A DNA stretch of 64,000 nucleotides, from the sequence record OR455461.1, one strand, 5' to 3'. Under the pieces are notes generated by a model. The model was not told the origin of the DNA, ran no database searches, and saw nothing but the letters and a program-made list of their open reading frames with translations. Made by a program: the position numbers and the translations under genes. Shown here piece after piece: positions 26,707 through 63,392 of this stretch (within the stretch, counting starts at the first letter, position 1; each line of letters starts with the position of its first letter). The stretch comes from Staphylococcus phage AH12.

Positions 26707-28965
26707 TCATTCAAATATAAAATTAGTTGAACCTGTATCATATACTTTATTTATATAAGTTTTATTTTTATCAATCTTATGTCTTATATAACTATCATTA
26801 CTTGTACCTTTTAAGAAAGTCTTTTCAATAGGTAATTCATTACCTACTTTATACATTCCAAATTTCTCAAATTTATAACATGTATATGAATCAGATTTTA
26901 CATTAAAAGTTAGACTTGGAAATATCTTTTTAATTTTAATTAAATCTGCGTCTGTATTTAAAAGTGAAATAAAATTATGTGATACATTAGTCTTATTATT
27001 AAAAGAAAATGCACAAATAATATAACCTTTATAATAAAGAGCGAAGAAGTCAGAATCTTTCCCATAAAAGTCTTCTGTTGAATGATTTTCAAAGAAATCT
27101 TTAAATGTAAAGAATCCCATAGATTTAATTTTTATATCACCATAATCTAATACAGAATAATCATCTTTAAATAGTAACAATTGATGTAAGAATTTAGCAT
27201 AATTCTTACCATCAATTCTTTTAGTTTCATTACGGATATCATCATCAAATAAATTAAGAAGATGGTACCCTTTTTCTTTAAGTTCATTGTATTTCTTAAG
27301 TTGATGATATTTAGCATTTATATCAGATTTAGTTTCATTGGAATGATATTTAACTCCATTAACTTCAATAGCCAATTTATACTTTTCAGAGAGTATATCA
27401 ATTTCTTTACCATCTAACAAATCTCTATTCTGTCTTTCTATATCAAAACCTAAATATTTCATTTCATCAGATACTTTTGATTCAGCAATAGAAGATTTTC
27501 CATTACTACATGACGGACAATTAATACCTTTTTCTATTAAATCATTTGCATTTATTTTAAATTCACCATGGTCTTTACATATTACTATTGATCTTTCATA
27601 TTTATCGTTAGGTCTAAATTTACTCATATTATATTTATCTTTACCATGTTTAATATTTGCAAGTGTTTGATATACTTCAGTCTTTTCTTCTTCAGTATAA
27701 TCAAAGTTATTAAGATTTTTAATCTTAGTATTAAGTGACTTTATACGTTTATACTCTTTTAATTCCTGAACAGAATATTTTCTCTTATTCTTTATTTTTG
27801 GTATTGATACTGATACTGAAACTATTTCTTTTTGATCTTCATTTGAATCTTTAACTTTATCTTTAACTTTATCTTTAACTTTATCTTTAACTTTATCTTT
27901 AATATTATCCTTAACTTTATCAATATCAAAATTATTAGAGATTTCTCTTTCTATATTTTCTTTCTTCATATTCTTTTTAATTTTCGGTGTTTTCTTTATA
28001 CCTTTAAGTAATTTCTCAGTTTCTTCTTCACGTTTCTTTTTATTATTCTCTACGATTTTTTCCCAGTCTTTATCTATACTAAGTTTTTCTTCTTCACATT
28101 TAGGACAAGCTAATTTTTTATCAAATAACATTTCGTGTATAGATGTTTTAAATTCACCATGTTTTTCACATATAATTGGTTGAATATCTTTTTCGTTAAT
28201 AGGTCTAAATTTAGAAAAATCATAGTTTGTATTATTAGCTTTATTTAGAGCTAAATCATAAATATGGTTTTTCTCATCTTCTGTATAATCTTTAGTCAAT
28301 TCTAAAAATAAATCAGGATCTATGTCTTTTAAATTATTAAAGATATTTTCAGTAGTTGCAACTTCTCCATCTTTCTTACAACCTGGACAGCCATCAAGAT
28401 TATTTATAAGAAAATTTTTAACTGAACTTTTAAAGCTACCATGTTTTTCACAGACTATATTTTGTTTAGTATTTATACTGTTCGGTTTAAAATTAGATAC
28501 ATCATAAGGAGAATATAGTCCATATTTAGCTATTGTAATATTATAGAAGAATAAATATTTTTCTTCTTTACTTTTATTCTTTAAATATCTAACTTTATCT
28601 TTCATTTTAGTAGAGCTATTTAAGAAAAATGTATAAGGTTCTAAAAATTCATTAGGATCTTCTACCATAGGAGATTCAAGTCGCTTAGTTCTTTCTTTAT
28701 TTTTTAAAAATTTCTCAGCGTTAACTTTATTTTCATTTTCTCCTGATTCAATTATTCTTAAACAGCTTTCAAAATAATTATCGAACCATTCTTTACTTTT
28801 AGTATATTTAATCATTCTTATTTTAAAATCTTCAGATATTTTTCCTTTATATGTTACTTTTACTTTATCTTCATTTATTTGATAATCTTTATCATTATCT
28901 ATATTAAATGTATAGTCATTACCTAATTTTTCTTTAAAGCTTTCTCTTAATTTTTTACCTAACAT
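26707..28965 (-). CDS. putative free-standing homing endonuclease: three zinc-finger-like repeats (CEKHGxFK...CPxC) plus a Vsr/DUF559-like PD-(D/E)XK nuclease motif (LAIEVNGVKYH); internal (KVKD)n repeat
   Basis: The 752-aa ORF carries 'CEKHGSFK..CPGCKK', 'CEKHGEFK..CPKCEE' and 'CKDHGEFK..CPSCS', then 'GKEIDILSEKYKLAIEVNGVKYHS'. A 12-bp tandem repeat lies at about 27845-27905. Confidence 0.5.
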   Translation of the reverse strand: MLGKKLRESFKEKLGNDYTFNIDNDKDYQINEDKVKVTYKGKISEDFKIRMIKYTKSKEWFDNYFESCLRIIESGENENKVNAEKFLKNKERTKRLESPMVEDPNEFLEPYTFFLNSSTKMKDKVRYLKNKSKEEKYLFFYNITIAKYGLYSPYDVSNFKPNSINTKQNIVCEKHGSFKSSVKNFLINNLDGCPGCKKDGEVATTENIFNNLKDIDPDLFLELTKDYTEDEKNHIYDLALNKANNTNYDFSKFRPINEKDIQPIICEKHGEFKTSIHEMLFDKKLACPKCEEEKLSIDKDWEKIVENNKKKREEETEKLLKGIKKTPKIKKNMKKENIEREISNNFDIDKVKDNIKDKVKDKVKDKVKDKVKDSNEDQKEIVSVSVSIPKIKNKRKYSVQELKEYKRIKSLNTKIKNLNNFDYTEEEKTEVYQTLANIKHGKDKYNMSKFRPNDKYERSIVICKDHGEFKINANDLIEKGINCPSCSNGKSSIAESKVSDEMKYLGFDIERQNRDLLDGKEIDILSEKYKLAIEVNGVKYHSNETKSDINAKYHQLKKYNELKEKGYHLLNLFDDDIRNETKRIDGKNYAKFLHQLLLFKDDYSVLDYGDIKIKSMGFFTFKDFFENHSTEDFYGKDSDFFALYYKGYIICAFSFNNKTNVSHNFISLLNTDADLIKIKKIFPSLTFNVKSDSYTCYKFEKFGMYKVGNELPIEKTFLKGTSNDSYIRHKIDKNKTYINKVYDTGSTNFIFE

Positions 28966-29012: not shown

Positions 29013-29040
29013 CTCAAATTTATAATATATATTTAAAACG
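29013..29040 (-). promoter_or_regulatory. same upstream motif, about 50 nt upstream of the HEG-like gene 26707-28965
   Basis: The motif is recorded under the 25836-25860 feature. Confidence 0.35.
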
Positions 29041-29150: not shown

Positions 29151-29519
29151 TACTTTTACGAGAAAAGTATAAAGTTGCTTTAATAATTTTTTATATCCTA
29201 TAAAGCATAAGAAGGATTAAAGAAACCAATATATGCATGGAACATATTAGGAATCTTATAGTGATATTTTAATAGTCTAGTTTTTCTTATATTAGGAACT
29301 AAAACTAGAAAACCTAAAGTGTATTAAAGTCAGATACTTATCACAAATTAATGTAAAATAAGTCCTCTTTAATACTTCTTTTTTAATACTTTTTTACAAC
29401 TAAAGATATGCCTTAACTTTAGTTGAATCTAATAAATTAAGTTTGGCATATCACTTAATTTATATTTTATTTATAGCAGGTCTGCAGCCAAGCTATAAGG
29501 ATGATTAATCCTATAGGGT

Positions 29520-29604
29520 TGTTCCTAATGAGATTCGAACTCATAACCTACAGATAAATTTTAATTCATAAATCTGTACGCTCTGACCATTGAGCTATAG
29601 GAAC
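29520..29604 (-). tRNA. tRNA-like gene (85 nt) with canonical acceptor, D and T arms but a non-canonical, expanded anticodon region (7-bp stem, 16-nt loop)
   Basis: The minus-strand sequence reads GTTCCTA-TA-GCTC-AATGGTCA-GAGC...ATGAG-TTCGAAT-CTCAT-TAGGAAC. The acceptor stem has 7 bp, the D-loop is TAGCTCAATGG and the T-loop is TTCGAAT. The anticodon arm does not fold as 5 bp plus 7 nt. Confidence 0.5.
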
Positions 29605-29964
29605 ATAGAAATTTAAAAAAAAATTAAAAGAGTACATTTATCATCTATGCACTCTTTTAAGTAAATAAATATATAATAATATCTATTAATTTTTAATTAT
29701 ACGTAAGGAGGCGTATGGATTTCTATTTAAAACCATGACATATTAAAAATAGAAACAAGAGAAACCAAAGAAACATTTTTAAACCAACAACGAGTGACAA
29801 AGTAAGTTATAATAGAATTTAATCTATTATATTTTTTAGTTAAATCAAAAACTAAAAAAAATCTATAATAATTTGACGAGAATCATTATAGATTTATACT
29901 ATATAGTTAATTAATATTTTTAAATAAAATTTTTTTAATAAATAGGAATTTTAGACCAAAAAAA

Positions 29965-30034
29965 AGCTTATCCGAGGGATCGAACCCCGGACACATGATG
30001 AAAATCATTGCTCTACCAACTGAGCTAGATAAAC
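29965..30034 (-). tRNA. tRNA-like gene (~70 nt) with canonical acceptor/D/T arms but a shortened anticodon arm (ATGAT-TTTC-ATCAT)
   Basis: The minus-strand sequence reads GTTTATC-TA-GCTC-AGTTGGTA-GAGC-A-ATGATTTTCATCAT-GTGTC-CGGGG-TTCGATC-CCTCG-GATAAGC. The anticodon loop appears to be 4 nt. Confidence 0.45.
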
Positions 30035-30072
30035 TTTCTTCATTATTATAATATATGTTTATATTTCACTAT

Positions 30073-30135
30073 ATTACGCTTTTAATAAATATAATCTTCT
30101 ATATCAATTTCATTTTGTTTAATTGTCATATATTC
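30073..30135 (-). repeat. duplicated 3' end of the beta-prime gene (15 codons MTIKQNEIDIEDYIY + stop), differing from the copy at 31402-31452 only at synonymous positions
   Basis: Alignment of 30088-30135 against 31405-31452 shows 3 mismatches, all synonymous in the beta-prime frame. Both copies are followed by TAA. Confidence 0.8.
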
Positions 30136-31366
30136 CTGAATTATGATAATACAATTTTCTTTTATTATCAAAAATTTTCATGGGTTCTTTGATTTCTATT
30201 TTATCTTTCATTTTTAAATAATGACTATATTTCATATTATCTAAAGAATTTGTTTTTACTTCTTTTTTGATAATATTTTCTAATTTTTCTTTTAAATTAT
30301 AATTTTCATTCTCATATAAAAATACAGTAGAAAATTTATTTTCTAAAAGAAATAGAGCTTTTTCTTGATGATAATATTTATCTTTAAATATTTCTGAATG
30401 CCAGTAAGCTCCATTACATTCGATAGCTATTTTTTCTTTAATATCATCAATATATAAAATTATATCAATTTCTCTTTTACCAATAAATTTATTATTTTCA
30501 ATATGATAACTATAATTTTCGTTGTCTAAAATTTCTTTTAATTCATCCAATACATTAATTTCAAATAATGAACGTTGTTTAGAATTACATTTACAACCTC
30601 TAGGACGATATCTATCATAATTTATATAATCTTTAAAAATAGTATTACATTTATTACATCTAAATGAATATATAAATTCTGAATTTATACCTTTAAATTC
30701 ATCATAAGTGTTTAAAATGTCTATATCATATTTTTTTAATAAATTCTTTAAATTATAATAAGTTTTATTTTTTCTAATTTTATTTAATTTTTCTTTTATG
30801 GTGTCATTTTTCATAGGATTGTCTACACCATATCTATTGATAAAAGATTCTTTTATTATATTTGACATATTAGGTATTTCATAAATATTATTAGCATCAA
30901 ATTTATTTTTTATTTGATCTTTAATATTTATGAAATTCCCATTATTTTTTAAAGTATTATGTGATTTAGAAGATATTACTTTATTTTTCATAGGATTGTC
31001 TACACCATATTTATCAATAAAAGCTTTCTTTCTTTTAATATTAAAATCTTCTATTTTATTCATATTGCTTGTTCCATACTTATCTTTTAAAGTTTTTCTT
31101 CCTTTTTCATATTTTTCAGGATCTTTCATAGAACAACTTCTAGAACAATATACTCCTAATTTATGTTTATTTTTTACAAATTTAACTTTATTTTTTCTAC
31201 AATACTTACAGTAAATTACAGAATTTATATCATTTCTTATATAGTACATTCTTTCAGATAAATTTACATCTTTAAATTCATTTAAAAAATCAGTGTATTT
31301 AATAATATCATTTTTATATTTATTTAAAGCAGGTCCTTTTATTTTCTTAATTTGTTCTAATTGCAT
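30119..31366 (-). mobile_element. free-standing homing-endonuclease gene (415 aa) inserted immediately downstream of the beta-prime stop codon; three KYGVDNPMKN repeats, Cys pairs, Vsr/DUF559-like motif IAIECNGAYWHSE
   Basis: The protein carries 'REIDIILYIDDIKEKIAIECNGAYWH', comparable to Vsr 'RPDIVFP..AIFVHGCFWH', and three 'KYGxDNPMKN' repeats. Its position and the flanking target duplication are recorded under the 30073-30135 repeat. Confidence 0.55.
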
Positions 31367-31401
31367 ATTATCACCCTTTCTAAAATGATAATATATATTT
31401 A

Positions 31402-32956
31402 TTAATAAATATAATCTTCGATGTCTATTTCATTTTGTTTAATTGTCATATCATGGAAAGACTTCATAGAGCTTGTTACAATTGCTTGAGCTACCTGATT
31501 GACTAATAAACCAATATTTTCTATACCTAATTTGTAAGGGAGTTCTCCTGCACATTTACTACAGATATCTTCACTTGCACAATACATAGGACTTCTGAAG
31601 TTCAATACTTTCCCAATATGCTCATCTACATTTGAAGTAGTTAACAGTGTTAATTGACCTTTTCTTCCTGAATTATCTTCAAAATATCTATAAAGTAAAA
31701 GATTCGCATTATCTTTAGTTAAAGTTAATTTTAATGTATGTTTTGTTCTACAATCAGAACCTTGTTTATCTAATACAGTTGTTTGGAAAGCAGACATAAG
31801 TTTTTTAGCTTGATCATTTTATTATCTATATTTTATTATAGATTAGACTATATCTTATGAATTTAATCATTTCTATATTTAGTCGTTGAACAACTTAATA
31901 AAGTTGATGCTAGTTAGTTTTTAACATTCTAGCAATTAATAGAATTTATTGTGAGCATCTAATTTACCCACCTTCTTGAGTCATTTATGTTAATCTATAT
32001 TAATTTAATATAGATCAGACTATATCAAAAACTCTTTATGAGTTTAATTATATTTAGTCGTTGAACAATCATTCTGATTGATGCTGATTAAGTTTATCTC
32101 TTCTCAGCAATTAATAATTTTTCTATTATTACATTACTATAATAAAGGGCATTCATATACCTAAAGCACGTCCAGCTGAACCAGCAGTCATAATGTCTCC
32201 AAACATATATAGTTCTTCTGGATCAATTCCATCAGCTAAAGAACTCTTAGCAATACGTATTTTACTAGGATCAGCGAAGTTTTTATTTGCTCCACGTATT
32301 AATGCAGTTAACTTGAAGTTATTTCCAAAACTACCTCTTGATCCACTATCATAAATATCAAGGTCTGCTAAACCTTCTAATTCTTCTTTACTTAACTTAA
32401 TTAATTCTTTTTCAATAGCACTAATAGCATTCAATTCTTCACCAGGAGTATTTAATGCTTTACCATATTTCTCTAGTAATTCTTCTTTCTTTTGTTTAAC
32501 TTTATCAGGAGCAACCATCATTGTAGTTGTCAAACTAGAATTAATAAATCCTGCTATAGAGAAACCAAGCCATTGAAGTTTATCAATATACATATTCATA
32601 TCTTTAGTTGTAATAACATCATTAAGTAATAAACTAGATAACTCAGATTGTAGATTTCCTACACCTGATCCTCCCATATCTTTATTCATATATCCTATAA
32701 TAGGTCCTATTTTATTGTCTAATATAAATTTATTAAATATATATCTTCCAACTGTTGTTCTTTCATCTTTACTATTATAAACTAAATCTTTTTTAAGTTT
32801 AAATCTATCGCTAGGATTAAACATTGGTTGTGTATTTTGTCTAAATGCAAATAATTCTTTAAGTTTATCAAGAGTAATATCTTCTTTTTTTATACTTAAT
32901 AAAGTTGATACTTCTTTCTCAGATAAATCTTTTTTATCATAAGTCATATTAACCAA
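31402..32956 (-). CDS. RNA polymerase beta-prime-like subunit, C-terminal half, interrupted by two group I introns; proposed exons 32956..32155, 31981..31962 (mini-exon), 31794..31402
   Basis: 'FRSPMYCASEDICSKCAG...IENIGLLVNQVAQAIVTSSMKSFHDMT' aligns to E. coli beta-prime '[21 protein letters not shown]...[25 protein letters not shown]'. 'KQGSDCRT' aligns to 'TEDDCGT'. Exon A ends GRALGI. The mini-exon restores 'YSRRWVN' (compare 'GYLTRRLVD'). The joined exons total 1215 nt and are in frame. Confidence 0.7.
31795..31961 (-). mobile_element. group I intron (beta-prime intron B), ORF-less, ~165 nt
   Basis: Minus-strand core elements are present: P AATTGCTAGAAT, Q AACTAGCATC, R GTTCAACGACTAAAT and S AGATATAGTCT. 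A 5' junction GGTAAAT|TAGATGCTC is also present. Confidence 0.65.
31982..32154 (-). mobile_element. group I intron (beta-prime intron A), ORF-less, ~170 nt
   Basis: Minus-strand elements are P AATTGCTGAGAA, Q AATCAGCATC, R GTTCAACGACTAAAT and S TGATATAGTCT. The 5' junction is GGTATAT|GAATGCCCTTTATTATAGTAAT and the 3' junction is ATAAATG|ACT. Confidence 0.7.
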
Positions 32957-36200: not shown

Positions 36201-38095
36201 AGTAATAAAATTGGGGTAGTTAGACAGCTTTCATATAATTCATTAATTAAATCTACTAGAGGTTATACTGATGGCGGTAAAAAAGATGCTAATGATACAT
36301 CTCTATACACTCCATTAGAATTACTTAACCCTTATTCTAGTAGACATGCCGATAATCAAACATGGATAGTCGGCTTAAAAACTATTTAATTGCTGAAATT
36401 ACTTTAAAGTTAATCAGCATCAATCAAATTGTTCAACGACTAAATAATAGATACTAATTATATAATTAGTAATGATATAGTCTCAACTATGTATAAAGTA
36501 TATAGAAATAAGATAATGTCTCCACGTATTGGAATGACTGGTATATGAATGCCCTTTATTATAGTAATATAATAATAGAAAAATCTTTAATTGCTGAGAA
36601 AATAATAATTAAGTTAATCAGCATCAATCAAATTGTTCAACGACTAAATAAGATTATACCTAAACGGTATTTGATATAGTCTCAGCTTTAATTTATTTTA
36701 AAGAAGTTCATTAAGAACTAATACACAATAAACAAAGTGTATTAAGATAATCTGACTCAAGCCAAGCACGTAATTCCAACAAAAACTAATAGTAAACCAT
36801 TAGTTGGATCTGGTGTTGATAAATCTTTAGCTTATCAATTATCAGATACATTTGCTTTTAAAGCTAAACAAGATGGTAAAGTATTAAAAATTAACGAGAA
36901 AACTGGTTTAATGACAGTAGAATATATCAATGGTGAAAAAGATATTGTTGATATATCTGAAAAATTAGCCAAAAACTCTAACTCAGGTTTTTATCAATCT
37001 AATAAACTTGATCCACAATTTAATGTAGATGACACTTTTAATAAAGGTCAAATACTTGCTAAAAATAATAATTTCTTTGCTGGATCCGGTAAAGATAATG
37101 ATATTCAATTTACTTCAGGTAAATTATCTAAAGTATCTGTAGCTAGCTCATATGGTATTATAAATGCCTTTCATTATAGTAATGTAATGTCAAAAAATTA
37201 TTAATTGCTGAGAAATATTAAATTAATCAGCATCTCTACATTTATAGAGTTCAACGACTAAATATGATTATTCATTAATACTAATGAATTTGATATAGTC
37301 TAATCTATTATAAAAATATAATAGCTAATATAAATGACTTATGAAGATAGTTCTATTATTTCTAGTAGTATGTCTGAAGCAATGTCTACTAAAGTTACTA
37401 TGAAGAAAACAGTAAATATTCCATCAAACACAAATATTCAATATATAGTTAAAGAAGGTCAGAAAGTACGTACAGGTGATCCTTTAATGATATTTGAAAC
37501 TTCATTTGATGAAGAAGGTATTGGTTCTTTATTAGATAAAATCGGTAGTGAATTTGAACAAGATATTCAAGATATAGCTAATCGAGCTGTTAGAAGTAAA
37601 TATACAGGTAATATTAAAAAGATTAATATTTATTATAATGATGATATTGAAAATATGACTGATAGTTTAGCTAAATTAGTTAATAATTACATTAAAAAAT
37701 CAAATGATAAATATAAAGAATATAAATCTGGAGTTAAAAATAATAAAGAAACTTTACCTGGTATTGATGTAGATATTGCAGCTGTAGAGAAAATTAATAC
37801 AGAGAAAATTAAAGGAGAAAAAGTTGACGGAGTTCTTATTGAAATCTTCACTGAATATGAAGATGATATGAGTGTTGGAGATAAAATTAGTTTCTACGGA
37901 GCTTGTAAAACTGTAGTTGCTGATGTAACTCCTCCAAATGAATCACCTTATTCTGAATATAGATCTGATGAAGAAGTTGAAGCTGTATTCTCTCCATTAA
38001 GTATTGTCTCTCGTATGACAGTTGATATTTATATGATGTTATTCACAAATAAAGCTTTAATAGAATTAAAACGTAAAGTAAAAGATATGGTATAA
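33273..38095 (+). CDS. RNA polymerase beta-like subunit interrupted by three group I introns; proposed exons 33273..~36383, 36513..36546 (mini-exon), 36747..~37160, ~37337..38095
   Basis: The exon-1 C-terminus 'GPAGRNNEQSYEPDIRSYSESMQGVLGISSPDSNKIGVVRQLSYNS' aligns to E. coli beta '[46 protein letters not shown]'. 'LLNPYSSRHADNQ' aligns to 'LIPFLEHDDANR'. Exon-3 'QAKHVIPTKTNSKPLVGSG' aligns to 'QRQAVPTLRADKPLVGTG'. The in-frame stops at 36387 and 37202 fall inside intron cores. Confidence 0.65.
36384..36512 (+). mobile_element. group I intron (beta intron 1), short-form 5' region, ORF-less
   Basis: P AATTGCTGAAAT lies at 36388, Q AATCAGCATC at 36412, R GTTCAACGACTAAAT at 36431 and S GATATAGTCTC at 36474. 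A P8-like hairpin is TACTAATTATATAATTAGTA. The 3' junction is TAAG|ATAATG. Confidence 0.6.
36547..36746 (+). mobile_element. group I intron (beta intron 2), ORF-less, 200 nt
   Basis: The 5' junction is GGTATAT|GAATGCCCTTTATTATAGTAAT. The P, Q, R and S elements lie at 36589-36683. The 3' junction is TAAG|ATAATC. The exon joins are in frame and give ...MTGIY|NLTQAKHVIP. Confidence 0.65.
37160..37336 (+). mobile_element. group I intron (beta intron 3), ORF-less
   Basis: The 5' junction is GGTATTAT|AAATGCCTTTCATTATAGTAAT. P lies at 37204, Q at 37226, R at 37250, a P8 hairpin is ATTCATTAATACTAATGAAT and S lies at 37286. The 3' junction is ATAAATG|ACT, analogous to beta-prime intron A. The exact splice sites remain ambiguous, since both 37336 and 37350 are possible 3' ends. 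Confidence 0.55.
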
Positions 38096-61522: not shown

Positions 61523-63392
61523 TTAAGCTCCTTTACTTTTTATTTTATCAGATACTTTCTTAGCTGCAACATTCAATGGAGGTAAACCATGAAATTCTTG
61601 AGCAAAGGATACACTATCTTGACTGTTAAATTTACTAATAAATTCAGTATTAAAGTCATAATTTAATTTGTCTTCTTCATACTTAGGAACTGTCATTGTA
61701 GATTTATCTCGTATTTGAATTTTACCTATGTGTCCTTCAGGAGTTATATTAAATCCTCTAATAATTGAAGGATATAGTGAACTCAAGTCAAAGTCACATA
61801 CATTACTAAATATTCTATTAGATCTAATATCTTTACCTTTAACTAAAATATCTCCCATACGTTCTATTAAAGTCATATTAGCTACAAATCCACCACGTAT
61901 TTTATCTGCATTTGGATCAGATAGTATTTTAGAGTGATTATTACTTAATACAAATCCTTGATTTTCAAAGAAGACAGAACTACGATTTCTTAAACAAATA
62001 GTTTTCTTAAGTGCTTTACTTGGTCTAGTTCTAGTCATATCTACAATAGAGAATAGTAAATCAAACATATTAGTGTTCTTCTCTATTAAAGCAGTTAATA
62101 TGGTATCTTTAATATTATAAAGAATGAATGTGTAATAATCTCTAAAATGTAAATCAGAGATAGAGCCTTCATATACATCCTTTTTAATTCCAGTTTCTTT
62201 TTCACCAACATCATTTAACTTAACTGATTCCATTACACCGTTCGGTTTATTCACATTTGCATATAAAGCTAATTGGTCAATCCAGTTAGTGTATGAGTTA
62301 GTTTCGAATGTAGATGATCTATTAGCTGCATCTGTAGCATTCTTATCTAATCTATAATAAGCTTTTTTATCTTGTAAATCTTTAGAACAGAAATAATCTG
62401 CTGGATCTTCTCCATTAACTTTAATTCTTTCAAATATAGTTGCAAAGTCAAAATCTAGATTCCATGCGGTACATATATCAGGCTTACTAATTTCATTAAT
62501 ATAGTATAAGAATGATTTAATAATTTCCATTTCAGTATCTAATTCATATATTTCAAATTCTAAACCTAAATCTTCTCCAATCTCACTATCTTTATTATTA
62601 TAAATATTATTTAGATCTTCCATTAATTTAGTTTTATCTGTCATAACTTCATTATAATTATCCGTATCATATTTTAATGCAAATGTTAAACATTTACGTT
62701 TACTCCAATCAACTACAGTTATAATATTAATTTCAGCCATTCCTGGTTCAGGGACATTTATATTAACTTCATACAATTGTATAAAGATTAGACTATATCT
62801 TATCAATATCAGTGATAATTATATTTAGTCGTTGAACACAATTAAATGTGATGCTGATTGTCTTTAAACTTTTCAGCAATTAATAATTTTTTAATTGAGC
62901 TACCTAAAACCCAATTACATTTGATCCATCTACCTCTATATCAAATAGACATATATCAATTCCAACTTTACTATCTAAGTTTTGTTTGATATATTCATTG
63001 ATATTATAATCTTCAATATTAATATCAGATCCATGAACATTATTCATTAAATGAAAATCTTTTAATTTTCTAAACTCTTCATAATTACCTGAAGATAATA
63101 TTCTATCGTATTCTGATTTATCTTGAGCATTACCTGCTTCTCTAACTATAGATTTAATAACATCTTTATGTTTACAATGTACAGTTCTAACTTTCTCTTT
63201 TGCCATAGAACCTACAACTTGACCAGGTGGTAACCAATATTCATCTTTAGTAACATAATAGTGCATCATTGGATCCACTATTTCCATATGTTTTTTAGTT
63301 CCATCTTCTTCTTTAACAACCATTACTACTTTTTCTTTTTTATTAGATGTTTCTTTTTTATTCAAATATGTTGATTTTATAAAACGACCCAT
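61523..63392 (-). CDS. family B DNA polymerase, N-terminal part (3'-5' exonuclease motifs I-III + polymerase motif A), interrupted by a group I intron; proposed exons 63392..~62906 and 62754..61523
   Basis: Exo I is 'LFDIEVDG', Exo II is 'TAWNLDFDFATIFERI' and Exo III is 'YYTFILYNIKD'. Motif A is 'DFDLSSLYPSIIRG'. Motifs B and C were not found in this window. Confidence 0.65.
62755..62905 (-). mobile_element. group I intron in polB, ORF-less, short-form 5' region
   Basis: Minus-strand elements are P AATTGCTGAAAAG, Q AATCAGCATC, R GTTCAACGACTAAAT and S AGATATAGTCT. The 3' junction ATAAATG|TCC matches the other introns. The first about 17 codons of track ORF 61523-62806 are intronic. Confidence 0.65.

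What the first reader, a model, noticed from the sequence alone, without database searches (positions are those of the whole stretch)
30073..31452. Homing-endonuclease gene inserted at the beta-prime stop codon, with a synonymously recoded duplicate of the final 15 codons
The beta-prime reading frame ends ...HDMTIKQNEIDIEDYIY* at 31402. Thirty-five nucleotides later a 415-aa ORF begins that carries a Vsr/DUF559-like PD-(D/E)XK motif. Immediately after that ORF's stop codon, in another frame, the last 15 beta-prime codons plus TAA are repeated (30073-30135). The two copies differ at only 3 nucleotides, and all 3 changes are synonymous. A recoded target site flanking an inserted endonuclease gene is the classic footprint of homing: the recoding makes the site resistant to re-cleavage. 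It records the insertion event and preserves the probable recognition site (about 48 bp).
Basis: partly seen in the sequence, partly recalled or inferred. Interest (0 to 1): 0.85.

Follow-up and report, generated by a model that had tools for sequence, protein, structure and literature searches.

The report
Truncated homing endonuclease gene after phage beta-prime
One lineage of a Staphylococcus jumbo phage has gained a selfish, 3'-truncated endonuclease gene just after its RNA polymerase beta-prime gene, leaving a second 50-base copy of the gene's end; the event is real but of an ordinary kind, and nothing shows the copies were recoded for protection.

Summary
A 50-nt direct repeat (31402-31451 and 30082-30131) has 3 mismatches, all synonymous in the beta-prime frame. 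It brackets a 415-aa Hef-like (Vsr-like/EDxHD) homing endonuclease ORF at 31366-30119 on the minus strand.

All nine related Staphylococcus jumbo phages carry one copy of the site and no endonuclease gene. In PB50 and Machias the single copy is followed by the same 46 nt and tRNA that follow copy 2 here. This is therefore a true insertion polymorphism.

The "recoded for immunity" reading is not supported:
- Each of the three variant bases also occurs in endonuclease-free relatives.
- 3 differences in 50 nt matches the local divergence between these phages.
- Canonical homing does not duplicate its target.

The endonuclease lacks the roughly 170-aa C-terminal domain of its family. Homology ends at the junction with copy 2, and copy 2 supplies the stop codon. 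The right-hand junction is therefore most likely an illegitimate join.

The cassette carries an exact AR9-type early-promoter 13-mer and a Shine-Dalgarno sequence.

The closest known architecture is the mitochondrial "mobile ORF" gene hybrid (Allomyces atp6, Glomus atp6/atp9/cox2/nad3). I rate it a new member of a known kind, of moderate interest.

The parts
31402..31816 (-). Last exon of the phage RNA polymerase beta-prime (mid-domain) gene, including the TAA stop at 31404-31402
   Evidence: tblastn of the uninterrupted S6 beta-prime protein aligns residues 273-399 to 31812-31432. Annotated as viral RNAP beta-prime in Machias and PB50.
31402..31451 (-). Repeat copy 1: the last 47 nt of beta-prime plus the stop codon, in frame and in use as the gene's 3' end (variant codons ATA GAC ATC)
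   Evidence: (D16)
31388..31400 (-). AAATATATATTAT, an exact match to the AR9 early (virion RNAP) promoter consensus, starting 2 nt after the beta-prime stop. Position +1 after the 6-nt spacer is A, followed by G, where the consensus has G.
   Evidence: The consensus AAATATATATTAT-(6N)-G was established experimentally for AR9 (PMC5312081). There are 5 exact matches in the window against 0.24 expected, and each lies 20-75 nt upstream of an ORF start on the same strand.
31371..31380 (-). Shine-Dalgarno-like GAAAGGGTGA, ending 4 nt upstream of the endonuclease ATG
   Evidence: Read directly from the sequence
30119..31366 (-). 415-aa free-standing Hef-like homing endonuclease ORF. It has an N-terminal Zn-ribbon and DUF7487 helical repeats, and a Vsr-like/EDxHD nuclease at about residues 266-372. 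The C-terminal family domain is missing, and the last 13 nt, including the stop, lie in copy 2.
30082..30131 (-). Repeat copy 2: a non-functional remnant of the beta-prime 3' end (variant codons ATT GAT ATA), contiguous with the native downstream flank
   Evidence: 0/198 differences to PB50 in the flank 30081-29882; no longer ORF in the beta-prime frame
30036..30081 (-). Native 46-nt beta-prime/tRNA spacer, carrying the promoter-like AAACATATATTAT at 30048-30060. It matches the spacer in PB50 exactly and differs from Machias at one base.
29964..30035 (-). tRNA gene that directly follows beta-prime in genomes without the endonuclease
   Evidence: Machias annotates it as a tRNA-Asn pseudogene

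Best explanation
The window comes from a Staphylococcus jumbo phage of the AR9/PBS1-like group, about 95-97% identical to PB50 and Machias. A free-standing Hef-like (Vsr-like/EDxHD) homing endonuclease cassette sits directly after the stop codon of the RNA polymerase beta-prime gene. The cassette consists of a family-specific early promoter, a Shine-Dalgarno sequence and the ORF.

Shown here:
- The cassette is present in this genome and absent from all nine sequenced relatives.
- Those relatives have one copy of the 50-nt gene end, followed in PB50 and Machias by the same spacer and tRNA.
- The nuclease domain is intact.
- The protein lacks the family's C-terminal domain, and its ORF runs into copy 2, where it finds a stop.

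Inferred:
- The left side was joined by homologous recombination within beta-prime. Copy 1 and perhaps some upstream sequence came from the donor allele.
- The right side was joined by illegitimate, microhomology-level recombination. This fused codon ~411 of the endonuclease to position -50 of the resident beta-prime gene. One event thus both truncated the endonuclease and left the resident 3' end as a remnant (copy 2).
- The three synonymous differences are allelic differences between two phage lineages that were both under coding constraint before the join. They are not protective recoding.
- Expression is probably early, from the virion RNA polymerase promoter.
- The protein may still cut endonuclease-free relatives in or near beta-prime during co-infection and spread by double-strand-break repair. 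Its target site is unknown.
For: - Insertion polymorphism with exact empty sites.
- Endonuclease family and intact catalytic core: PHROG 3339 at E=4e-26; DUF7487 above the Pfam cut-off. D301, E316, G319, Y321, W322, Y332, H333 and K336 are invariant across 36 family members, and H323 is nearly invariant. The family profile hits 3r3p (I-Bth0305I) at E=2.6e-7, aligning D301 and H323 to the mutated catalytic D196 and H213. Foldseek matches 3r3p_B at probability 0.99.
- Truncation at the junction: homologues are mostly 500-720 aa, against 415 here. Alignments end at subject residue ~386-394 of 557-562. Annotated Hef-like genes in Mutine and RaK2 are 591 and 569 aa. In the AlphaFold model residues 1-373 are confident, while 374-415 have pLDDT around 30.
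- Own promoter.
- Not inside an intron: no Rfam hit and no group I P/Q/R/S core elements in the insert.
- Copies diverged under coding constraint: 3 of 3 changes are synonymous, against 15% expected per random change (p about 0.004 if all were unconstrained).
- The same gene-order architecture is documented for mitochondrial mobile-ORF gene hybrids (PMC3630166).
Against: - No donor or close relative of the endonuclease (above 34% identity) was found in any collection. The donor structure is therefore hypothetical.
- Similarity cannot tell which copy is resident. Copy 1 matches Machias at 49/50 and PB50 at 48/50; copy 2 matches PB50 at 49/50 and Machias at 48/50.
- The divergence hot spot in the last beta-prime exon is three-way, also seen between PB50 and Machias. 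It is not specific to the genome carrying the endonuclease.
- An in-situ duplication followed by mutation is not excluded. With outgroup polarity, only one or two changes need to have fallen in the unconstrained copy (p about 0.02-0.15).
- Activity of the truncated protein is untested.
Confidence: 0.6

Rival explanations
1. The 48-50 bp is the endonuclease's recognition site, and the synonymous differences are protective changes that stop it from re-cutting its own genome.
For: Both close endonuclease-free relatives read GATATC in adjacent codons, whereas neither copy in this genome does: copy 1 reads GACATC and copy 2 GATATA. So each copy carries one private change, relative to its nearest relatives, within the same hexamer. 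I-Bth0305I, the structurally characterised family member, is most specific at the centre of its site, which is pseudopalindromic (PMC3239194).
Against: - GATATA and GACATA are the normal alleles in seven more distant endonuclease-free relatives.
- Two private third-position changes landing in adjacent codons has a chance probability of roughly 0.15-0.2 (my estimate from about 14 synonymous-capable positions).
- For I-Bth0305I, few single substitutions abolish cleavage.
- 3 differences in 50 nt equals the background divergence.
- Free-standing phage endonucleases often cut at a distance from their own gene (PMC2790892).
Confidence: 0.15
2. The endonuclease targets beta-prime further upstream, for example an intron insertion site. 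Immunity then comes from the ORF-less group I introns that interrupt beta-prime 400-750 bp upstream (collaborative or trans homing). On this reading the 50-nt duplication is an unrelated junction scar.
For: - Two ORF-less group I introns lie in beta-prime at about 32152-31985 and 31968-31817.
- The introns are polymorphic among relatives: S6-like phages have none, PB50 has one, Machias and the window have two.
- The exon just downstream of them is a divergence hot spot in all pairwise comparisons, as expected for co-conversion tracts.
- Precedents are T4 mobE with I-TevIII and collaborative homing, within a co-conversion range of about 2 kb (PMC2790892).
Against: Machias has both introns but no endonuclease, and PB50 has intron B but no endonuclease, so the two features are not linked in the available genomes. 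There are no cleavage data.
Confidence: 0.15
3. The duplication arose within a single genome and the copies then drifted. It could be a transposon-like target-site duplication or an unequal crossover between sister genomes that already carried a cleanly inserted full-length endonuclease.
For: - The copies differ by only 3 nt.
- An unequal crossover between a genome with the endonuclease and a sister or relative would produce the same truncated gene plus remnant.
- With outgroup polarity only one or two changes need have occurred in the unconstrained copy.
Against: - 50 nt is far longer than a typical target-site duplication.
- There is no transposase and there are no terminal inverted repeats in the insert.
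- All differences are synonymous.
- The 198 nt downstream of copy 2 show no change relative to PB50, while copy 2 itself has one change and copy 1 has two.
Confidence: 0.1

Closest known systems
Mitochondrial mobile-ORF (mORF) gene hybrids: Allomyces macrogynus atp6; Glomus sp. atp6, atp9, cox2 and nad3; Rhizopus atp9; Mortierella cox2 (PMC3630166 and references in it)
   Same: The order is identical: gene core, then an in-frame C-terminal copy that is used, then the endonuclease ORF, then a second unused native C-terminal copy. Close relatives lacking the ORF have a single uninterrupted gene. The two copies encode the same or similar protein but differ at the DNA level.
   Different: The host here is a bacteriophage, not an organelle. 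The endonuclease belongs to the Vsr-like/EDxHD (Hef-like) family, not LAGLIDADG or GIY-YIG. The duplication is only 50 nt and 94% identical, against 64-81% in Glomus, so foreign origin of the upstream copy cannot be shown. The endonuclease is truncated and ends inside the remnant. It has its own promoter and is not fused in frame to the host gene.
Hef-type free-standing phage homing endonucleases (phage U5 Hef; Hef-like genes of Campylobacter, ViI-like and RaK2-like phages; PHROG 3339 / Pfam DUF7487)
   Same: Same protein family by profile. The gene is free-standing and intergenic, sits next to an essential nucleic-acid-metabolism gene, and shows presence/absence polymorphism.
   Different: At most 34% identity to any known member. 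It lacks the C-terminal domain of about 170 aa found in nearly all members. Its position is flanked by a duplicated host-gene end.
I-Bth0305I (EDxHD family prototype; PDB 3R3P)
   Same: Homologous Vsr-like catalytic domain (profile E=2.6e-7; fold probability 0.99). The Asp and His that were mutated in the crystal structure align with the invariant D301 and H323.
   Different: I-Bth0305I is encoded inside a group I intron in recA and has NUMOD-type N-terminal modules. This protein is free-standing and has DUF7487 repeats. The last acidic residue of the EDxHD motif aligns with an invariant His (H333) in this family.
T4-type intronless, collaborative or trans homing (SegF/SegG, mobE with I-TevIII, F-CphI with the psbA intron)
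   Same: A free-standing endonuclease gene lies between conserved genes, within co-conversion distance of ORF-less group I introns in the neighbouring gene.
   Different: Those systems have no target duplication. The cleavage site here is unknown.

Membership tests
Free-standing homing endonuclease gene (HEG) | Encodes a nuclease of a recognised homing-endonuclease family | tested here: met
   PHROG 3339 'homing endonuclease' at E=4e-26; profile hit to I-Bth0305I 3r3p at E=2.6e-7; Foldseek 3r3p_B at probability 0.99.
Free-standing homing endonuclease gene (HEG) | Presence/absence polymorphism at one precise site among close relatives | tested here: met
   Absent from 9 of 9 related Staphylococcus jumbo phages. 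The empty sites in PB50 and Machias are colinear to the base.
Free-standing homing endonuclease gene (HEG) | Not embedded in an intron or intein; has its own expression signals | tested here: met
   No Rfam match. No P/Q/R/S core elements in 30082-31401. Exact early-promoter 13-mer plus a Shine-Dalgarno sequence.
Free-standing homing endonuclease gene (HEG) | Cleaves the allele lacking the gene and is copied in by double-strand-break repair | not testable with these tools
   Needs cleavage assays or co-infection crosses.
EDxHD / Vsr-like homing endonucleases (I-Bth0305I, Hef) | Vsr-like PD-(D/E)XK-derived catalytic fold | tested here: met
   AlphaFold model with mean pLDDT 82. Matches to 3r3p_B (TM 0.63 on the target, rmsd 3.8) and to the DUF559-like 3hrl (TM 0.67).
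EDxHD / Vsr-like homing endonucleases (I-Bth0305I, Hef) | Composite catalytic motif E...D...x...H...D | tested here: inconclusive
   E269, D301 and H323 are conserved and align with the family and with 3r3p. The final Asp (D222 of I-Bth0305I) aligns with the invariant H333 in this subfamily (alignment).
Hef-like phage HEG subfamily (PHROG 3339; about 560-600 aa) | N-terminal Zn-ribbon plus DUF7487 repeats, followed by the nuclease | tested here: met
   DUF7487 at E=4.8e-10, above the cut-off. C56, C74 and C78 are conserved.
Hef-like phage HEG subfamily (PHROG 3339; about 560-600 aa) | C-terminal domain of about 170 aa (consensus IYARKC...NHxQG...RIWDCGN) | tested here: not met
   Only the first ~35-45 residues of this domain remain, and the ORF then ends in copy 2. 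The tail 374-415 is modelled as disordered.
mORF-type gene hybrid (Allomyces atp6 type) | Order: gene core, in-frame C-terminal copy, endonuclease ORF, second C-terminal copy; relatives without the ORF have a single copy | tested here: met
   description of the type in PMC3630166.
mORF-type gene hybrid (Allomyces atp6 type) | The upstream copy is foreign; the downstream copy matches the relatives' native sequence better | tested here: inconclusive
   Copy 2 matches PB50 at 49/50 and Machias at 48/50; copy 1 matches PB50 at 48/50 and Machias at 49/50. The downstream flank is identical to PB50 (0/198), but the divergence upstream is three-way.
Transposon with target-site duplication | Transposase, terminal inverted repeats, short identical duplication | tested here: not met
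   No transposase domain. No terminal inverted repeats among the reported pairs. The duplication is 50 nt with 3 differences.
Intron-encoded HEG (group I) | ORF embedded in a ribozyme with a P/Q/R/S core that splices to restore the host ORF | tested here: not met
   Beta-prime is complete without any splicing of this region.

The most novel reading that the evidence does not exclude
This would be the first phage counterpart of the mitochondrial mORF 'C-terminus swap'. On this reading, a Vsr-like/EDxHD endonuclease recognises a site centred on the GATATC hexamer in the last codons of beta-prime. It invaded while carrying a replacement gene end, and both retained copies escape cleavage through different single synonymous substitutions in that hexamer (GACATC and GATATA). 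The locus would then give a natural cleavable/uncleavable site series for an uncharacterised endonuclease that works on uracil-containing phage DNA.
Probability: 0.12. Interest if true: 0.55.

Novelty: new member of a known kind. Interest (0 to 1): 0.35.

Why it matters
This is a clean, datable example of how a selfish endonuclease gene enters a jumbo-phage genome next to an essential RNA polymerase gene without damaging it. It also shows that such an entry can be imprecise: the endonuclease is truncated and the host gene's end is duplicated. The locus gives annotators a rule for this phage group, which is to expect free-standing Hef-like genes, ORF-less mini group I introns and remnant gene ends around the RNA polymerase genes. 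The locus also supplies candidate target sites for testing an uncharacterised endonuclease of the Hef-like Vsr/EDxHD family. It does not change current understanding of homing.

Tried and rejected
- Searched for a donor or any second genome carrying the gene: tblastn and blastn against 50,697 phage records, the 5.8-billion protein index, IMG/VR, JGI metagenome contigs and GTDB genomes. Nothing above 34% identity was found.
- Searched for more beta-prime alleles in IMG/VR. Only relatives at 45-48% identity turned up, too distant to be informative.
- Tested whether a co-conversion tract specific to this genome marks the donor side. The divergence hot spot at 31800-31500 is also present between PB50 and Machias, so it is not diagnostic.
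- Tested the intron hypothesis for the insert using Rfam at gathering and at E<=1, plus P/Q/R/S motif scans. All were negative.
- Tested whether copy 2 is part of a longer ORF. It is not.
- The sigma-70 promoter scan was uninformative in this AT-rich DNA: 33 hits against 27 expected.
- phmmer of the single protein against PDB sequences found nothing. Only the family profile reached 3r3p.
- The original Hef paper (PMC1275590) is not held.
Full report
**What is in the sequence.** All relevant genes lie on the minus strand. The reading frame ending ...SFHDMTIKQNEIDIEDYIY* stops with TAA at 31404-31402. After 35 nt, a 415-aa ORF runs from 31366 to 30119. The repeat finder reports a 50-nt direct repeat, 31402-31451 and 30082-30131, with 47 of 50 positions identical and a spacing of 1320 nt (D16; D12). 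The three mismatches are third-codon positions (ATA/ATT, GAC/GAT, ATC/ATA), and both copies translate to MTIKQNEIDIEDYIY*. The copy also does not follow the ORF's stop codon. The last 13 nt of the ORF (…GGA ATA TAT GAC AAT TAA) lie inside copy 2 in another frame. In the beta-prime frame, copy 2 is preceded by a stop 14 codons upstream, so it is not part of a longer ORF in that frame.

**Where the window comes from, and the empty sites.** blastn against phage genomes places the window among Staphylococcus jumbo phages of the AR9/PBS1-like group. PB50 (OR770614) is about 95% identical and Machias (MW349128) about 97%. Seven others (LY01, S6, DC4, PALS_2, Madawaska, MarsHill, SA1) are about 81% identical. 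The gene is annotated there as the viral RNA polymerase beta-prime subunit, mid-domain.

In PB50 and Machias the gene ends with a single copy of the 50-nt sequence. It is followed by AAGCGTAATATA(G/T)TGAAATATAAACATATATTATAATAATGAAGAAA and a tRNA, which is the same 46 nt and tRNA that follow copy 2 in the window. A whole-genome search with copy 2 finds exactly one place in each of the nine relatives. The 1270 nt between the copies has no DNA homologue in any of them.

**What the inserted gene is.**
- Pfam gives DUF7487 (E=4.8e-10, above the cut-off) and a sub-threshold REase_MTES_1575 hit at residues 268-335.
- PHROGs gives phrog_3339, 'homing endonuclease', at E=4e-26.
- tblastn hits are Hef-like homing endonucleases of Campylobacter, ViI-like, RaK2-like and other phages, at 26-30% identity.
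- In the 5.8-billion-protein index the best hit has 34% identity.
[quoted passage not shown] The family's invariant Asp (D301 here) and His (H323) align with the two residues mutated in that crystal form (PMC3239194).
- That paper places Hef-type phage endonucleases in the Vsr-like 'EDxHD' family.
- An AlphaFold model (mean pLDDT 82) matches 3r3p_B (probability 0.99, TM 0.63 on the target) and other PD-(D/E)XK nucleases.

**The gene is truncated at the junction.**
- Family members are mostly 500-720 aa.
- The annotated Hef-like genes in Mutine and RaK2 encode 591 and 569 aa.
- Pairwise alignments of the 415-aa protein stop at subject residue ~386-394 of 557-562.
- The multiple alignment shows that only the first few dozen residues of the conserved C-terminal domain are present before the ORF enters copy 2. 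That domain has the consensus IYARKC…NHxQG…GLYY…RIWDCGN and shows a weak GNAT-like signal.
- The model's tail, residues 374-415, has pLDDT around 30.

The right-hand border is thus not a clean element end. It is a fusion of an internal point of the endonuclease gene to position -50 of beta-prime.

**Expression signals.** Two nucleotides after the beta-prime stop lies AAATATATATTAT (31400-31388). This is the experimentally defined early-promoter consensus of AR9, AAATATATATTAT-(6N)-G (PMC5312081). The window holds five exact copies against 0.24 expected. Each lies 20-75 nt upstream of an ORF start on the same strand. Here the position after the 6-nt spacer is A, then G. A Shine-Dalgarno-like GAAAGGGTGA precedes the ATG. 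The cassette is therefore adapted to this phage group's virion RNA polymerase, and I infer early expression. The insert has 17-20% G+C against 22-30% in its neighbours.

**Are the three differences protective recoding?** I find no support for that reading.
- All three variant bases occur in relatives that lack the endonuclease. Position 1 is A in Machias and T in PB50. Position 2 is C in Madawaska and MarsHill. Position 3 is A in seven relatives.
- Copy 1 differs from Machias at one base and from PB50 at two. Copy 2 differs from PB50 at one and from Machias at two.
- 6% divergence equals the local level in the last beta-prime exon, 4-10% per 200 nt in all three pairwise comparisons.
- Canonical homing splits its target rather than duplicating it. 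With this duplication, any native site shorter than the repeat plus one flank survives intact in one copy.

Both close relatives read GATATC, and neither window copy does (GACATC and GATATA). I estimate that two private changes would fall in adjacent codons by chance about 15-20% of the time. This is a testable hint, not evidence.

**What the synonymous pattern does suggest.** A random substitution in these 48 nt is synonymous 15% of the time. Three out of three points to divergence while both copies were still coding, that is, in two separate genomes before they were joined. With outgroup polarity the statistical support is modest, p about 0.004 to 0.15 depending on how many changes are assigned to the unconstrained copy.

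**Most likely history (inference).** A donor phage of the same group carried promoter plus full-length endonuclease directly after beta-prime. Recombination into the resident genome was homologous on the left, within beta-prime, and illegitimate on the right. The product is beta-prime (donor end, copy 1), then the promoter, then the truncated endonuclease, then the resident last 50 nt (copy 2), then the resident spacer and tRNA. An unequal crossover between an endonuclease-carrying genome and a sister genome would give the same product. Which copy is resident cannot be decided from similarity. The downstream flank is identical to PB50 (0/198), but the upstream divergence is three-way.

**Comparison with what is known.** The gene order matches mitochondrial mobile-ORF gene hybrids: Allomyces atp6, Glomus atp6/atp9/cox2/nad3, Rhizopus atp9 and Mortierella cox2. 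In those, an endonuclease ORF arrives with a replacement C-terminus and the native C-terminus stays downstream (PMC3630166). The protein belongs to the Hef-like/EDxHD lineage but fails one subfamily criterion, the C-terminal domain. The setting also resembles T4-type free-standing endonucleases near ORF-less introns, as in trans or collaborative homing (PMC2790892). Beta-prime here carries two ORF-less group I introns 400-750 bp upstream. However, Machias has both introns without the endonuclease.

**Verdict.** The immunity-by-recoding mechanism is unsupported. The added findings are the truncation at the junction and the cassette's own early promoter. This is a new member of a known kind and of moderate interest.

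Noticed in passing
window 31817-32152 (-): Beta-prime is interrupted by two ORF-less mini group I introns, A at ~32152-31985 and B at ~31968-31817, separated by a 16-nt micro-exon (ACTCAAGAAGGTGGGT, coding TQEGG). They carry the classical P/Q/R/S core elements; the 5' exon ends in T and the intron ends in G. PB50 has only intron B, and S6-like phages have none. Rfam reports nothing here even at E<=1.
   Followed up: partly
window 36354-36518, 36543-36754, 37157-37336 (+); also ~62790-62890 (-): Three more mini group I introns of the same family (165-212 nt, no ORF) split the RNA polymerase beta gene, again with a micro-exon (SPRIGMTG). A sixth set of core elements lies near 62.8 kb between two minus-strand ORFs. 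None was reported by Rfam at gathering threshold.
   Followed up: partly
window 32095-32152 (-) versus 36543-36600 (+): Beta-prime intron A and beta intron 2 share a roughly 95% identical first ~58 nt. They sit in the same exon context, GGT^ACTCAAG (G|TQ), in two different genes. PB50 lacks beta-prime intron A, which suggests a recent ectopic spread of one intron to a look-alike site.
   Followed up: partly
window 26707-28965 (-): A second, full-length Hef-like endonuclease ORF of 752 aa (phrog_3339; DUF723/DUF4379 zinc-finger modules; nuclease; C-terminal domain). It is preceded by an exact early-promoter 13-mer at 29022-29034 and is conserved in PB50 and Machias, where it is annotated as hypothetical. 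It contains a 12-nt tandem repeat (KDKV)n at 27832-27930, next to which the alignments with PB50 and Machias break.
   Followed up: partly
window 29517-29605 and 29964-30035 (-): Rfam supports both tRNA genes (60 and 46 bits), but ARAGORN cannot assign an anticodon to either. Machias annotates its two tRNAs in this region as tRNA-Asn pseudogenes.
   Followed up: no
window 31500-31800 (-): The last beta-prime exon is a three-way divergence hot spot: 13-20 differences per 200 nt among the window, PB50 and Machias, against 0-9 in most neighbouring 200-nt windows. The divergence drops to about 0-2 per 200 nt just past the stop codon. This looks like a recombination boundary at the end of the gene.
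   Followed up: partly
window 30048-30060 (-): The native beta-prime/tRNA spacer holds AAACATATATTAT-(6N)-G, one mismatch from the early-promoter consensus. It also contains AACA, the first element of the AR9 late-promoter motif. It may be the tRNA promoter.
   Followed up: no
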